Shown one piece after another: positions 1 through 4,388 of a stretch of 4,388 bases of DNA (within the stretch, counting starts at the first letter, position 1; each line of letters begins with the position of its first letter). Position numbers and translations under genes: made by a program. The notes under the pieces were generated by a model, which was given only the letters and a program-made list of their open reading frames with translations, was not told where the DNA came from and made no database searches. The DNA is from a virus (taxonomy: Duplodnaviria > Heunggongvirae > Uroviricota > Caudoviricetes). Location: IMG/VR virus record IMGVR_UViG_3300029244_000048. One strand, given 5' to 3'.

Positions 1-192
1 CACCGCAGGCAGTGACAGGTCAGGAAACTGCACCAGAACAACACCGGCAACCATCGAGACAAAACCACCGAGCAACATGCGCCCGATAAACAGACGCGGG
101 GTGATGGGTTCACCACCGGCAAGCACCTTGCCGACAACAATCAGCACCCCAATCATGAAAAGCGACAGGACGCTTTTTTCTTCTGCTGTCAT
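1..192 (-). CDS. Y: P2-like holin gpY, N-terminal 64 codons only (3' end lies beyond the window start)
   Basis: Minus-strand ATG at 192-190 opens a frame that runs to position 1 with no stop, translating MTAEEKSVLSLFMIGVLIVVGKVLAGGEPITPRLFIGRMLLGGFVSMVAGVVLVQFPDLSLPAV: hydrophobic and membrane-spanning in character, matching my recollection of the P2 gpY holin N-terminus. GGGAG lies 6 nt upstream (203-199). Position directly downstream of gpX fits P2 gene order. Not in the ORF track because it runs off the window edge. Confidence 0.82.
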   Translation of the reverse strand, partial: MTAEEKSVLSLFMIGVLIVVGKVLAGGEPITPRLFIGRMLLGGFVSMVAGVVLVQFPDLSLPAV

Positions 193-195
193 GCG

Positions 196-399
196 TTACT
201 CCCACAGATTGACAGTTTCAGCCACGGGCGCGGTCTGAACGTCGGGCAGTTCGACGGCGGTGCCGTGCGGCAGCACCGCGCCCAGTTCAGCCAGTCCCGG
301 ATTTGCGGCGAGCACGGTTTCAACCACGCCCTCAGTGCGCCCGTAATACCGGACACAAATGGCGTCGAGCGTGTCGCCCTGTAGCGCAAAGGTCTTCAT
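196..399 (-). CDS. X: P2-like tail protein X (gpX), 67 aa
   Basis: Internal ATG at 399-397 of the 196..468 track ORF gives MKTFALQGDTLDAICVRYYGRTEGVVETVLAANPGLAELGAVLPHGTAVELPDVQTAPVAETVNLWE (67 aa), matching remembered P2 gpX in sequence and length. The start overlaps the gpL stop (TGATG). The 23-aa extension in the track ORF lies inside gpL and is not used. Confidence 0.9.
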   Translation of the reverse strand: MKTFALQGDTLDAICVRYYGRTEGVVETVLAANPGLAELGAVLPHGTAVELPDVQTAPVAETVNLWE

Positions 400-908
400 C
401 AGATTTGACTCACGATGCAGCGCGGCTTGTCCTGGATACGCGCCACCGCCCAGCGCATATCCCGCCACAGTTCATCAATGGTGCTGTCAATGCTGTCGGC
501 CTTCTTGTCGCCTTTCGCACTGGCATCCACGCCGCGATAACGCTCATAAAGCGATGCGGTCGCCATCGCACACACGGCGCGCTCGTAGTAAAAAACTTTA
601 ATGCTTTCACCGTCGATGTCGTCCGCCGGGACGTCAGCCAGACGCGTAAAACCGGCGGCAATTTTCTGTTCGCGGTACTCGTACAGCTCCGCATTCGTTT
701 CAGCCATGCCTGACTTGATGGCCTCACGCAGACGGGCGGGGGCGACGGTCTGCTCAAGGCGCATACGTTCCCGGACGCGCTTCGGGTCGATATCGGGAAA
801 AAAGAACGTGTTTTTAATCACCGGCTCGTCGCCTGCCGGTTGCGGGATGACCACCGTACCCTCACCGGACACGGGAGCCTCCTTTCGCGGAATAATCAGC
901 GTCATCAT
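399..908 (-). CDS. L: P2-like head completion/stabilisation protein gpL, 169 aa
   Basis: Translation from the ATG at 908 (MMTLIIPRKEAPVSGEG...RCIVSQI) is 169 aa, matching remembered P2 gpL. GAGG lies 5 nt upstream (917-914). The track ORF start at 968 adds 20 aa with no RBS and is rejected. Stop TGA at 401-399. Confidence 0.92.
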   Translation of the reverse strand: MMTLIIPRKEAPVSGEGTVVIPQPAGDEPVIKNTFFFPDIDPKRVRERMRLEQTVAPARLREAIKSGMAETNAELYEYREQKIAAGFTRLADVPADDIDGESIKVFYYERAVCAMATASLYERYRGVDASAKGDKKADSIDSTIDELWRDMRWAVARIQDKPRCIVSQI

Positions 909-1007
909 GACTACCTCTGAAAAGTCGGGCGGTGGACGCCGGTGCAGTGTCAGGTGATTCACCCTCACTGACCGGCGTGCCGCCCTGGCGCGGGGCGCAT
1001 TCGGTTG

Positions 1008-1751
1008 TTAACTGGCTTTCTTTTTCGGGCGTCCACGTTTTGCCGGTGTCACGCTCCGGGTCTTACGCGGGGTACGGGTGGCCGCTTTGGGCTGCGGCTC
1101 CGGCTTCGGTTTCAGCTCCCGCTCCAGTCGTTCAATCTCTTTTTTGACGCCTGCCTGACAGTCGAGCTGTGTCGCACGTTGCAGGTGAGCCAGCGCACCG
1201 GCGGCATCACCACCATCACGCAGAAACAGACCGGTGATTTTGTGCAGCTTTGCGCGCACTTCATCAGGCATGTCAGCCGTGGCGGTCAGTTCAAGGGTGT
1301 CCGTCAGCAGGCGGGTATCCACAGACTCACCGGCAGCGTGAGCACGCATGGCCGCGAGCGCCACCTCCTCGGTGAACATGTACGGCGGGGTGCGGCGGTG
1401 TTTACCCGGCATGGTCAGACCGTACTTCAGGGCATAACGGGCAATCTCCAGCGCACCGGCAATATCGCCGGTATCCAGACGCCACAGCATGACCGTCATC
1501 AGAATGTCATCCTGTGCACCTTTGCCCTGCTCCAGCACGCCGTTCACCCACGGCAACCAGAACGGCAGCAGTTCGCGTTTTTTTGCGGCCTTCAGCTCTT
1601 TTGAATAAATCGCTTTCAGTGTGCGCTGGTCTGCGGCCAGCTTGACCAGCATCTGCTCATAGACAGTTGCATGTCGCAGCGGGGCGGCTTCCCGCTGCGC
1701 GGTCATCGCTGCCGAGACCCGCATCATGTGGCGCTGTGCGGGACTCGTCAT
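1008..1751 (-). CDS. M: P2-like terminase small (endonuclease) subunit gpM, 247 aa
   Basis: The full 247-aa track ORF (MTSPAQRHMMRVSAAMTAQREAAPLRHATVYEQ...AKRGRPKKKAS) matches remembered P2 gpM in sequence and length, with a basic Lys/Arg/Pro-rich C-terminal tail. GGGAG lies 8 nt upstream (1764-1760). Confidence 0.93.
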   Translation of the reverse strand: MTSPAQRHMMRVSAAMTAQREAAPLRHATVYEQMLVKLAADQRTLKAIYSKELKAAKKRELLPFWLPWVNGVLEQGKGAQDDILMTVMLWRLDTGDIAGALEIARYALKYGLTMPGKHRRTPPYMFTEEVALAAMRAHAAGESVDTRLLTDTLELTATADMPDEVRAKLHKITGLFLRDGGDAAGALAHLQRATQLDCQAGVKKEIERLERELKPKPEPQPKAATRTPRKTRSVTPAKRGRPKKKAS

Positions 1752-1754
1752 CGG

Positions 1755-2814
1755 TTACGCTCCCGGCTCTGCGNNNNNNNNNNNNNNNNNNNNNNNNNNN
1801 NTCCACCAGACAACCGGCGGCGTAGTCTTCCACCACGTAATCAATGTTCATTGACTCGTAGTTCTCCACGCGGTCGAGTTTCGGGTTTTCCACAATCACG
1901 CGGCGATGGCTGTCATCCATGTAGTAGATGGACAGGTTTTCCAGCTTCGTGATGAGCATCGCATCCGCCGGGAAGTACGGGACGCGTACCGCCGGCAGGT
2001 TACCGATGCGTTTCTGGCTGATGATGACGTCAGCGGCCAGCATTTCGCTGTTGTCCTGCTCCTTGTTGACGATGGGGAAATACTTGTCCGCCAGTAGCTG
2101 ACGCCCCACAATCACCACAAGGTCAGGGTCTTCCTGATACCACGGTTCAATCAGGTTGTTGGTCGCATCCATCACCAGTGCATCAAGGCTGGCATAATCA
2201 CCGCCCTTGCCCACGCGGATAACCTCAGAGGTGGTGCGGCCTTCCTCGTCAGTGACCTTGCTCATCACGCGCGCCGGGGCTTCATTGCGGTATTTCTGCA
2301 GCCAGCCGACCGCCACATCCTGCAACATCGGATTGCTGCTGCGGTCAGAGGTTTCAGCACGCTTCACGCCGTTAAAACCGGCCATGATGAAATCAAGGGA
2401 CTGGCGTTTGATAATGGCGTTACGGACACGGAGCTGGAAATCCTGATAACGCGCCCACAGGTCAAGCGTTTTGTAGCGGATATAAAAATCGAAGTTAATC
2501 TGGTCGCATTCGTACTTGTTTGACGCCAGCTTCGAGAAGTCCTTCGGCTGACGCTCGGTGCCACCGGCGGTGTCGGTGGTGCTGGCGATGGAGCCGGTGA
2601 CACCAATACCAATTTTTTCCCCTTTCATTTCGCTGACCGGCACAATGTTGATGTGGGTCAGAAAGTCAGAGGACTCCTGCATGGTGTTCATCAGGGTCTG
2701 GGTGACCGACGGTTCAACGGTGAATTTTTTCGACACATCACCGGCGTCGATGCCGTTCAGTTCGGCAACACGGGACAGGTAAGCATTAAATTTAAAGCGG
2801 GTTTCCTGGCGCAT
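1755..2814 (-). CDS. N: P2-like major capsid protein gpN; 3' end interrupted by the N-run, so the end coordinate is inferred
   Basis: Translation from ATG 2814 (MRQETRFKFNAYLSRVAELNGIDAGDVSKKF...NIDYVVEDYAAGCLV) matches remembered P2 gpN for about 337 residues until the N-run at 1801. After the gap the sequence reads ..AEPGA then TAA (1757-1755) in a frame offset by 1 from the pre-gap frame, which fits my recollection of the gpN C-terminus (...AEPGA). The proposed end is therefore that TAA, not the track ORF end at 1657. AGGA lies 8 nt upstream of the ATG. Confidence 0.88.
1774..1801. other. Assembly gap or masked bases (28 N) at the gpN/gpM junction
   Basis: 28 consecutive n characters. The flanking frames do not join across it, so its length is probably arbitrary rather than true. 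Confidence 0.95.
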
Positions 2815-2872
2815 AGTTTTTCCTGAAATTAAGGGTTAATCGTGAAGGTTTTCCCGGACTGACTGACGCCGG

Positions 2873-3727
2873 TCAGCAGTTCGTCATCAGGGCGTCACCG
2901 CCACCACCGGTGGCCTTGCTGCGGCGCTGCTGGGTCAGACTTTCGGTGTGGTCGAGACTGTTTTTCAGGCGGGTGAATGCCTGGCTGGTTTCATCCGCCC
3001 TGTCAGTCACCTCCTGCTTAAGTGCGGAAAAGGCGGTTTCCATCTCAGCGAGGCGCTGCTCAGTGGCGCTCAGTTTTTCCTGCACATGTTCAGCAACAGC
3101 GGTCACCGCTTCATGCACATCATTCAGGCGGGCATCATCGCTGGCCTGTTTGCGGCCAAAAATGGACTTCACCTTTTCAGTCAGGGCGGTGAACACGGTT
3201 TCAGGCAGGTCTTCAAATTCCAGCTCAACAGGCGTTGCCACTGAAATCAGGTTTTCAGGGCTTAATTTGAAGCGGTTCAGGGGGTTGTGTTTTGCCGTGC
3301 GGCAGAATTCCAGGTATTCCGTGCCGAGGCTTGCCGGGTCATCGGTGACGGCCAGACCCACCAGATAACATTTGCCGGTGTTGGCAAAGTTCGGCTGAAT
3401 TTCCATTGAGGTGTAGACCTTCTGCGCGGCCTTGTTCATCGCGATAAGGTCATCGGTCGGGGTGATTTTTGCAAACAACGCCCATTTGCCTTTCAGCGCC
3501 GAATCATCGTCAATCTTTTCGGCCTTCAGTTCGGCCACATCGCCATAACGTTTAAAAATACCGTCAGGCAGGATGCCGCGCAGATGTTCCAGGTTAATAC
3601 GGCAACCATAGACTCGCGGGTCAAAGGTTTCGGCCATTTCCTGAATATCCTGCGCACTGATGACACGCCCGTCACAGGTGTCACCCTCAACGCCGATACG
3701 AAAGAATTTTGAGACTTTTTTTGCCAT
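2873..3727 (-). CDS. O: P2-like capsid scaffolding protein / maturation serine protease gpO, 284 aa
   Basis: Translation from the internal ATG at 3727 (MAKKVSKFFRIGVEGDTCDGRVISAQDIQ...GGGGDALMTNC) is 284 aa, matching remembered P2 gpO. Asp19 (3673-3671), His48 (3586-3584) and Ser107 (3409-3407) sit where I recall the gpO protease catalytic triad. The track ORF start at 3793 adds 22 aa into the divergent promoter region and is rejected. Confidence 0.93.
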   Translation of the reverse strand: MAKKVSKFFRIGVEGDTCDGRVISAQDIQEMAETFDPRVYGCRINLEHLRGILPDGIFKRYGDVAELKAEKIDDDSALKGKWALFAKITPTDDLIAMNKAAQKVYTSMEIQPNFANTGKCYLVGLAVTDDPASLGTEYLEFCRTAKHNPLNRFKLSPENLISVATPVELEFEDLPETVFTALTEKVKSIFGRKQASDDARLNDVHEAVTAVAEHVQEKLSATEQRLAEMETAFSALKQEVTDRADETSQAFTRLKNSLDHTESLTQQRRSKATGGGGDALMTNC

Positions 3728-3900
3728 TGTCAGGAGTCCTGAATAGTGATTAGAGGAGTCACATGTCGGCATCAGTTTCCCGACGATGCGCATCCTCCGC
3801 CATCAGTCCCGGATGGCTTATCACTGACACAACAGCACCTTAGCGAATCGCGGGGCGCGACTCAGTAGCCTTGCCGTGTATTCATCACGGCGAGGTATTC
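3728..3900. promoter_or_regulatory. Divergent intergenic region between gpO (minus) and gpP (plus); expected site of the divergent late promoters (P_O and P_P equivalents)
   Basis: 173-bp non-coding gap between two divergently oriented late genes. It contains three perfect dyads: CAGGAGTCCTG (3731-3741), GTCGG-N10-CCGAC (3765-3784) and CCGTG-N7-CACGG (3874-3890). GAGG at 3892-3895 is the gpP RBS. Promoter positions themselves are not determinable from sequence alone. Confidence 0.45.
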
Positions 3901-4311
3901 ATGACCATCACCACAGACACCACTCTTTTACACGACCCGCGTCGTCAGGCGGCGCTGCTGTACTGGCAGGGGTTTTCCGTGCCGCAGATTGCCGCCATGT
4001 TGCAGATGAAACGCCCGACGGTGCAGAGCTGGAAACAGCGCGACGGCTGGGACAGCGTTGCCCCCATCAGCCGTGTCGAAATGAGTCTGGAAGCGCGGCT
4101 GACCCAGCTCATCATCAAACCGCAGAAAACCGGCGGTGACTTCAAGGAAATTGACCTGCTGGGACGCCAGATTGAACGACTGGCACGGGTCAACCGTTAC
4201 AGTCAGACCGGCAACGAGGCAGACCTTAATCCGAACGTCGCTAACCGCAACAAAGGCGGGCGGCGCAAACCGAAAAAGAATTTTTTCAGTGACGAGGCTA
4301 TCGAAAAGCTG
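3901..4311 (+). pseudogene. P: Terminase large (ATPase) subunit gpP, first 137 codons only, cut by IS1 insertion
   Basis: ATG at 3901 with GAGG 5 nt upstream. Translation MTITTDTTLLHDPRRQAALLYWQGFSVPQIAAMLQMKRPTVQSWKQRDGWDSVAPISRVEMSLEARLTQLIIKPQKTGGDFKEIDLLGRQIERLARVNRYSQTGNEADLNPNVANRNKGGRRKPKKNFFSDEAIEKL matches the remembered N-terminus of P2 gpP (about 590 aa in full). From 4312 the frame continues into IS1 sequence. Confidence 0.87.
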
Positions 4312-4388
4312 GGTAATGACTCCAACTTATTGATAGTGTTTTATGTTCAGATAATGCCCGATGACTTTGTCATGCAGCTCCACCGATT
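4312..4388 (-). mobile_element. IS1 insertion sequence, right end (IRR plus insB 3' end), extending beyond the window; IS1 genes are on the minus strand
   Basis: 4312-4388 is the reverse complement of the remembered IS1 right terminus (...AATCGGTGGAGCTGCATGACAAAGTCATCGGGCATTATCTGAACATAAAACACTATCAATAAGTTGGAGTCATTACC), including the terminal inverted repeat GGTAATGACTCCAACTTATTGAT. GC content drops abruptly at 4312. Confidence 0.9.
4327..4388 (-). CDS. insB: IS1 transposase InsB (InsAB') C-terminal fragment, 5' end beyond the window
   Basis: Minus-strand translation ends ...SVELHDKVIGHYLNIKHYQ with stop TAA at 4329-4327, matching the remembered IS1 InsB C-terminus; the stop lies 15 nt inside the IS1 terminus. 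Confidence 0.85.
   Translation of the reverse strand, partial: SVELHDKVIGHYLNIKHYQ

What the first reader, a model, noticed from the sequence alone, without database searches (positions are those of the whole stretch)
4303..4388. IS1 insertion cuts the terminase large-subunit gene gpP after codon 137
The gpP frame (3901 onward) is P2-like up to ...SDEAIEKL and then switches at 4312 to the inverted-repeat end of IS1. Terminase large subunit is essential for packaging in P2-like phages, so this prophage is most likely unable to produce infectious particles, although all six head and lysis genes in the window look intact. This is a prophage domestication or decay event caught at a single identifiable lesion. 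IS1 normally makes an 8-9 bp target duplication; the 9 bp to the left of the element are GAAAAGCTG (4303-4311).
Basis: partly seen in the sequence, partly recalled or inferred. Interest (0 to 1): 0.65.

Follow-up and report, generated by a model that had tools for sequence, protein, structure and literature searches.

The report
IS1 end interrupts P2-type terminase gene
A common bacterial jumping gene (IS1) cuts the DNA-packaging enzyme gene of a P2-type prophage after codon 137, an ordinary kind of prophage damage whose far side lies beyond the end of the sequence.

Summary
Window 1-4311 is colinear with phage P2 at 98% identity: Y' X L M N O on the minus strand and P on the plus strand. The gpP frame starts at 3901 and matches P2 residue for residue through codon 137. 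From 4312 to the window end (77 nt) the sequence is 100% identical to the IS1A/IS1B end that lies next to the transposase stop codon. The switch falls on the outermost IS1 nucleotide, as shown by three IS1 copies with unrelated flanks. That marks a real transposition junction, not a random misjoin. The truncated product keeps only the N-terminal helix-turn-helix domain and lacks the ATPase and nuclease domains.

The rest of the interpretation cannot be tested here. The window ends inside IS1, so the full element, the 9-bp duplication and the rest of gpP are unseen. The junction is absent from 5,426 complete E. coli genomes, phage records, 185,579 species-representative bacterial and archaeal genomes, metagenome contigs and viral contigs. 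The exact predicted 163-aa gpP'-IS1 fusion protein does occur on two ENA contigs.

"Single lesion" and "six genes intact" are overstated: capsid gene N carries a 28-N run and holin Y is cut by the window edge. This is ordinary prophage decay and of low interest.

The parts
3901..4311 (+). gpP' : first 137 codons of the P2-type terminase large subunit gene. It keeps the Terminase_5/HTH domain (residues 12-69).
   Evidence: Protein identical to P2 gpP 1-137. Pfam PF06056 E = 3e-28. Terminase_6N and Terminase_6C are found only in the full-length P2 protein.
4303..4311 (+). GAAAAGCTG, the 9 bp next to the IS1 end and the candidate target-site duplication. The second copy would lie beyond the window.
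   Evidence: Read from the sequence. It lies beside the most AT-rich stretch of gpP'. The 50 nt before the junction are 44% GC, in the lowest 5% of 50-nt windows of the P2 part. The duplication itself was not observed.
4312..4388 (-). Terminal 77 nt of IS1, at the end next to the transposase 3' end (IRR). The transposase reads on the minus strand. The roughly 23-bp imperfect terminal inverted repeat is 4312-4334.
   Evidence: 100% identity to IS1A/IS1B in at least 5000 plasmid records. The boundary is shared with three IS1 copies in unrelated contexts, and the inverted repeat was compared with the other end of the 768-bp element.
4327..4388 (-). 3' end of the IS1 transposase (insB / InsAB') coding sequence. 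The stop codon is at 4327-4329, and the gene runs off the window end.
   Evidence: Mapped from the annotated CDS 1216..1913 (minus strand) in L015 and L016, where the match starts at 1201.
3901..4388 (+). Fusion reading frame: gpP 1-137 followed by the IS1-encoded tail GNDSNLLIVFYVQIMPDDFVMQLHR(F-stop). The stop codon falls 2-4 nt beyond the window.
   Evidence: Translation and extension with a full IS1. The exact 163-aa product P0121 is present in the protein collection, from ENA, on 2 contigs.
2873..3727 (-). gpO (scaffold/protease), intact, 284 aa. It is transcribed divergently from P.
   Evidence: 2 substitutions relative to P2. The exact protein is very widespread and sits next to a 590-aa gpP in all 10 places shown.
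1755..2814 (-). gpN major capsid gene. Its 3' end is unreadable because of a 28-N run at 1774-1801.
   Evidence: All 11 relatives have 42 nt at this position.

Best explanation
An IS1 element transposed into the terminase large-subunit gene (P) of a P2-type prophage of E. coli or a close relative, between codon 137 and codon 138. The element is oriented so that its transposase reads antisense to P.

Shown: the junction lies exactly at the IS1 terminal nucleotide. The interrupted frame would give a 163-aa protein made of the gpP N-terminal HTH domain plus 26 IS1-encoded residues. That protein has no ATPase or nuclease domain.

Inferred:
- The element is a complete 768-bp IS1 flanked by a 9-bp GAAAAGCTG duplication, with gpP codons 138-590 and portal gene Q following it.
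- The insertion also reduces Q expression. Q lies directly downstream of P, with stop and start overlapping by one base in P2, and IS1 insertions are classically polar in both orientations (established knowledge).
- This prophage therefore cannot package its own DNA unless terminase and portal are supplied in trans.
- The window ends 77 nt into IS1, probably because a short-read assembler broke the contig at the repeat. 77 is a usual SPAdes k-mer size.
For: - Colinearity with P2 at 98% identity up to window 4312. All phage and E. coli alignments stop at that base.
- Window 4312-4388 is 100% identical to IS1A/B.
- The IS1 boundary is defined by three copies with unrelated flanks and coincides with 4312.
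- Domain content of gpP' compared with full gpP.
- The 163-aa fusion protein, predicted by appending a reference IS1 to the window, exists exactly in the public protein collection on two ENA contigs. The junction therefore continues as IS1 for at least 81 nt in at least one assembly.
- The target lies beside the most AT-rich stretch of gpP', which fits the known IS1 preference for AT-rich targets (established knowledge).
- In 10 of 10 places shown that carry the same gpO, the neighbouring gpP is 590 aa, so the intact state is the norm.
Against: - Only one end of IS1 is visible. No target duplication, no left IS1 end and no distal gpP were seen.
- Neither the observed junction nor the predicted far junction occurs in 5,426 complete E. 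coli genomes, the species-representative genomes, metagenome contigs (three chance hits only), viral contigs or phage records.
- I could not retrieve the two ENA contigs. I cannot say whether they are independent of the window's source.
- None of the three plasmid IS1 copies examined had matching 9-bp flanks. IS1 ends without a duplication, caused by deletion or recombination, are therefore common.
Confidence: 0.88

Rival explanations
1. The IS1 end marks the border of an IS1-mediated adjacent deletion, inversion or recombination between IS1 copies. In that case the distal part of gpP, and possibly Q and neighbouring DNA, is missing or elsewhere. The visible P2 segment would be a prophage remnant, not a prophage with one lesion.
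For: The far side is unseen. None of the three IS1 copies examined on plasmids has matching 9-bp flanks. Public assemblies hold many other gpP truncations made by deletions and fusions, such as P0021 (gpP' joined to the gpX C-terminus), P0003 (internal deletion) and P0032 (joined to an integrase-like sequence). The window holds only 4.3 kb of P2 DNA and has an unreadable gap in N.
Against: Nothing direct. The retained genes O, M, L and X are intact and 98% identical to P2, which suggests a recent event in a still well-preserved prophage.
Confidence: 0.25
2. The junction is an assembly artefact: a chimeric join of a P2-type contig to an IS1 copy located elsewhere. The gpP gene would then be intact in the organism.
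For: The window ends inside a high-copy repeat, where assemblies are least reliable. There is an N run elsewhere in the window. The junction is absent from all complete genomes searched.
Against: The switch falls exactly on the terminal nucleotide of IS1. Transposition predicts this, but a random misjoin would hit that position only by chance. The only shared sequence at the join is a single G, too little to mislead a k-mer assembler. The same fusion product, extended into IS1 through the predicted stop, is recorded on two ENA contigs.
Confidence: 0.03
3. Only a solo IS1 end or an internally deleted IS1 fragment is present, not a complete, active IS1.
For: Only 77 nt are visible in the window, or at least 81 nt via P0121. 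Truncated IS1 copies exist; the pHCM1 copy diverges from IS1 after about 370 bp.
Against: Complete IS1 copies are far more numerous, with a median of 10 places per E. coli genome. The effect on gpP would be the same either way.
Confidence: 0.07

Closest known systems
IS1 (IS1A/IS1B), the 768-bp insertion sequence of Enterobacteriaceae
   Same: The 77 visible bases are 100% identical to the right end of IS1A/IS1B, including the terminal inverted repeat and the 3' end of the transposase gene.
   Different: No difference in what is visible. The rest of the element and the target duplication lie outside the window.
Phage P2 gene P (terminase large subunit, 590 aa) in the Q-P / O-N-M-L-X-Y late region
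   Same: Same gene order and orientation, 98% DNA identity, and gpP residues 1-137 identical to P2.
   Different: The gene stops being gpP after codon 137. The Terminase_6N ATPase and Terminase_6C nuclease domains are absent from the window.
IS-disrupted terminase gene of a defective prophage: nu1 of prophage Sp4 in E. coli O157 Sakai (PMC2669165)
   Same: An insertion sequence interrupts a terminase subunit gene of a resident prophage whose neighbouring morphogenesis genes are otherwise recognisable.
   Different: Sp4 is lambdoid, the small subunit is hit, and the paper does not name IS1 as the element. In that case the genome was still packaged, using a related prophage's terminase.

Membership tests
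IS1 insertion sequence | Terminal sequence matching the IS1 inverted repeat and adjacent transposase 3' end | tested here: met
   77 of 77 nt identical to annotated IS1A/IS1B copies.
IS1 insertion sequence | Host sequence ends exactly at the outermost IS nucleotide (a transposition junction) | tested here: met
   Three IS1 copies with unrelated flanks share the boundary GGTAATGAC, which is window 4312. P2 homology ends at 4311/4312.
IS1 insertion sequence | Complete 768-bp element with insA/insB and the left inverted repeat | not testable with these tools
   The window ends 77 nt into the element. The ENA contigs carrying the fusion protein could not be retrieved.
IS1 insertion sequence | 8-9 bp direct target duplication flanking the element | not testable with these tools
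   Only the left copy (GAAAAGCTG, 4303-4311) is visible. The predicted far junction was not found in any collection.
P2-type terminase large subunit (gpP) | N-terminal Terminase_5 (gpP-like HTH) domain | tested here: met
   PF06056, E = 3e-28, residues 12-69.
P2-type terminase large subunit (gpP) | Terminase_6N ATPase domain and Terminase_6C nuclease domain | tested here: not met
   Present at 164-386 and 413-571 of P2 gpP, but the window's frame leaves gpP at residue 137. The window encodes a gene fragment, not a functional member.
P2-type terminase large subunit (gpP) | Position divergent from O-N-M-L-X-Y in a P2 late region | tested here: met
   Colinear with P2. Gene-by-gene comparison. 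Same layout in 10 loci that carry the identical gpO.

The most novel reading that the evidence does not exclude
The 163-aa gpP'-IS1 fusion keeps the HTH/Terminase_5 domain and is still placed behind the late promoter. It might be retained because it interferes with packaging by incoming P2-type phages or P4-type satellites, for example by titrating the small subunit gpM or cos DNA. On that reading the broken terminase would act as a superinfection-interference factor rather than being plain decay.
Probability: 0.02. Interest if true: 0.5.

Novelty: already known. Interest (0 to 1): 0.1.

Why it matters
It matters little beyond annotation. It marks this P2-type prophage copy as unable to make its own packaging ATPase/nuclease, and probably its portal as well. 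That is relevant when predicting whether a strain releases phage or can act as helper for P4-type satellites. IS insertions and other lesions in prophage terminase genes are well documented (PMC2669165). Public assemblies already hold dozens of differently truncated copies of this same gpP.

Tried and rejected
1. I looked for the same junction, or the predicted far junction, elsewhere.
- A degenerate pattern covered the near junction and the far junction with either a 9- or 8-bp duplication. It matches the window.
- It gave 0 hits in genome contigs, and a plain near-junction pattern also gave 0.
- It gave 0 hits in viral contigs.
- It gave 3 hits in metagenome contigs, all unrelated IS1 insertions.
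- Megablast of the near junction and of a synthetic far junction found no place covering both halves in 5,426 complete E. coli genomes. No phage record carries the junction either.

2. I tried to retrieve the contigs carrying the fusion protein.
- The 162-aa partial product is not on record.
- Ten shorter prefixes, as expected from assemblies with smaller k, are not in the collection.
- A look-up through gpO returned only loci with intact 590-aa gpP, because that protein is extremely common.

3. I searched for the P2 late-promoter dyad TGT-N12-ACA, recalled from memory, in the O/P intergenic region. There was no exact match, and I did not pursue it.

4. PDB sequence search with full gpP gave no solved relative. 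NCBIfam gave only a weak, sub-threshold resemblance of the N-terminus to terminase small subunits.

5. A paper search for IS1 target preference returned nothing directly usable. That point rests on established knowledge.

Full report
**What is in the window.** BLAST against phage P2 (NC_070905) shows that window 1-1773 and 1802-4312 are colinear with the P2 late region at about 98% identity, without indels. Gene-by-gene comparison gives the following layout:

| Gene | Window coordinates | Strand | State |
|---|---|---|---|
| Y (holin) | 1-192 | minus | cut by the window start after 64 of 93 codons |
| X | 196-399 | minus | intact |
| L | 399-908 | minus | intact |
| M | 1008-1751 | minus | intact |
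| N (capsid) | 1755-2814 | minus | 3' end unreadable (N run) |
| O | 2873-3727 | minus | intact |
| P (terminase large subunit) | 3901 onward | plus | interrupted after codon 137 |

O, M, L and X are full length, with 0-5 substitutions relative to P2. A run of 28 N at 1774-1801 lies in the 3' end of capsid gene N. P2 and ten other P2-type loci all have 42 nt there. The N frame therefore cannot be judged. The long "385-aa" ORF in the mechanical ORF list is an artefact of reading through the N run.

**Checking the observation.** The P frame from 3901 to 4311 is 137 codons. It is identical in protein sequence to P2 gpP 1-137, ending SDEAIEKL. Every alignment to phage records and to complete E. 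coli genomes stops at window 4312. The remaining 77 nt (4312-4388) are 100% identical to IS1 in at least 5000 plasmid records, where they lie under "IS1A/IS1B family transposase" annotations.

I fetched three such copies with unrelated flanks: R100, pLVPK and pHCM1. All three begin at GGTAATGAC, the same base as window 4312. In the two complete copies (R100, pLVPK) the element is 768 bp long, with an imperfect terminal inverted repeat of about 23 bp. The annotated transposase CDS ends 15 nt inside this end. The window therefore shows the IS1 end next to the transposase 3' end, and the transposase reads on the minus strand, antisense to P.

Base 4312 (G) is also the next base of intact gpP, so the breakpoint has one base of formal ambiguity.

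**Is it a real insertion?** The strongest argument is positional. The P2-type sequence is replaced exactly at the outermost nucleotide of IS1. Transposition produces this, and a chimeric misjoin would hit it only by chance. Apart from that single shared G, there is no sequence in common that could mislead an assembler.

A second argument comes from the predicted product. Appending a reference IS1 to the window predicts a fusion ORF of gpP 1-137 plus GNDSNLLIVFYVQIMPDDFVMQLHRF, with its stop 2-4 nt past the window end. Exactly this 163-aa protein (P0121) is in the public protein collection, from ENA, on two contigs, the longest 7,398 nt. I could not retrieve those contigs, so I cannot say whether they are independent of the window's source.

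A third argument is composition. The site lies beside the most AT-rich stretch of the retained gpP. The 50 nt before the junction are 44% GC, against a mean of 57%, which puts them in the lowest 5% of windows. This agrees with the known preference of IS1 for AT-rich targets (established knowledge).

The window stops exactly 77 nt into the repeat. This looks like a de Bruijn-graph contig end at k = 77. That is an inference, not a result.

**Consequence for the gene.** Pfam places Terminase_5/HTH at residues 12-69, the Terminase_6N ATPase at 164-386 and the Terminase_6C nuclease at 413-571 of P2 gpP. The window's product keeps only the first of these. This copy therefore cannot translocate or cut DNA.

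In P2 the portal gene Q follows P directly, with stop and start overlapping by one base. IS1 insertions are classically polar in either orientation (established knowledge), so loss of Q expression is a likely additional effect. This is inferred.

**What could not be shown.** The proposed tests all concern sequence beyond the window: a full IS1, a second GAAAAGCTG, and the rest of gpP followed by Q. I searched for both the observed junction and the predicted far junction.

- A degenerate pattern covering both junctions matches the window. It found nothing in the 185,579 species-representative genomes (plain pattern also negative).
- It found nothing in IMG/VR.
- It found three unrelated IS1 insertions in metagenome contigs. 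These show that the degenerate scan works.
- Megablast found no complete E. coli genome among 5,426 with either junction, and no phage record carries the junction.
- Ten shorter prefixes of the fusion protein, as expected from assemblies with smaller k, are absent from the protein collection.

This particular insertion is therefore rare, and its far side is unknown. An IS1-bounded deletion or rearrangement remains a serious rival. None of the three plasmid IS1 copies had matching 9-bp flanks.

**How ordinary is it?**
- P2-type late regions occur in 1,587 of 5,426 complete E. coli genomes. The best match to this window is 99.0% identical.
- The identical gpO sits next to a 590-aa gpP in all ten places shown.
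- The protein search returned dozens of differently truncated near-identical gpP N-termini. They include frameshifts between about codons 85 and 128, an internal deletion (P0003), a P'-X fusion (P0021) and a fusion to integrase-like sequence (P0032).
- IS disruption of a prophage terminase gene is documented. In O157 Sakai, the nu1 gene of Sp4 is cut by an IS, yet Sp4 DNA is still packaged, probably by the terminase of the related Sp14 (PMC2669165).
- The same paper notes that P2 is not inducible by mitomycin C because its repressor lacks the peptidase motif.

**Verdict.** The sequence observation is right, and its core reading is well supported: an IS1 end interrupts gpP after codon 137 and removes the catalytic domains. 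Three further claims go beyond the evidence: "simple insertion with duplication", "single lesion" and "cannot produce particles". This is a routine example of IS-mediated prophage inactivation. It is already a known kind of event and of low interest.

The only non-trivial reading left open is that the retained HTH fragment has an interference function. I give that about 2%.

Noticed in passing
window 1774-1801: A run of 28 N lies in the 3' end of capsid gene N. P2 and ten other P2-type loci all have 42 nt there. The run is therefore either a placeholder or mask of arbitrary length, or it hides a 14-nt frameshifting deletion that would be a second lesion. It also creates a spurious 385-aa N-M read-through ORF in the ORF list.
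   Followed up: partly
window 1-192: The window starts inside holin gene Y, with 64 of 93 codons visible. Y therefore cannot be called intact, and no lysis gene other than this partial Y lies in the window.
   Followed up: yes
window about 4155-4290 (gpP codons about 85-128); proteins P0005-P0008, P0014-P0018, P0031, P0043, P0048, P0057, P0071: Many public assemblies carry near-identical gpP copies frameshifted into the same alternative frame (tail ...FSVTRLSKSWSRFSLSS...) at different positions in this stretch. The stretch contains homopolymer runs (AAAAAG, TTTTTT). These may be real decay or sequencing errors. P0005 is seen on 9 contigs.
   Followed up: no
proteins P0021, P0003, P0032: Other gpP remnants are fused to the gpX C-terminus (a deletion spanning O to L), to the gpP C-terminus (an internal in-frame deletion) or to an integrase-like sequence. 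They show several independent routes of decay at this gene.
   Followed up: no
window 4150-4312: The best complete E. coli genomes match this stretch of gpP' at 162 of 163 bases, so none is identical. The window differs from P2 at 4299 (T versus C, synonymous). This is a minor lineage marker.
   Followed up: no
L003 (JAERMT010004834.1) 1-52 and 3748-3806: A 3.8-kb metagenome contig, picked up by chance, has IS1 right-end sequence in inverted orientation at both of its ends. It is unrelated to P2.
   Followed up: no
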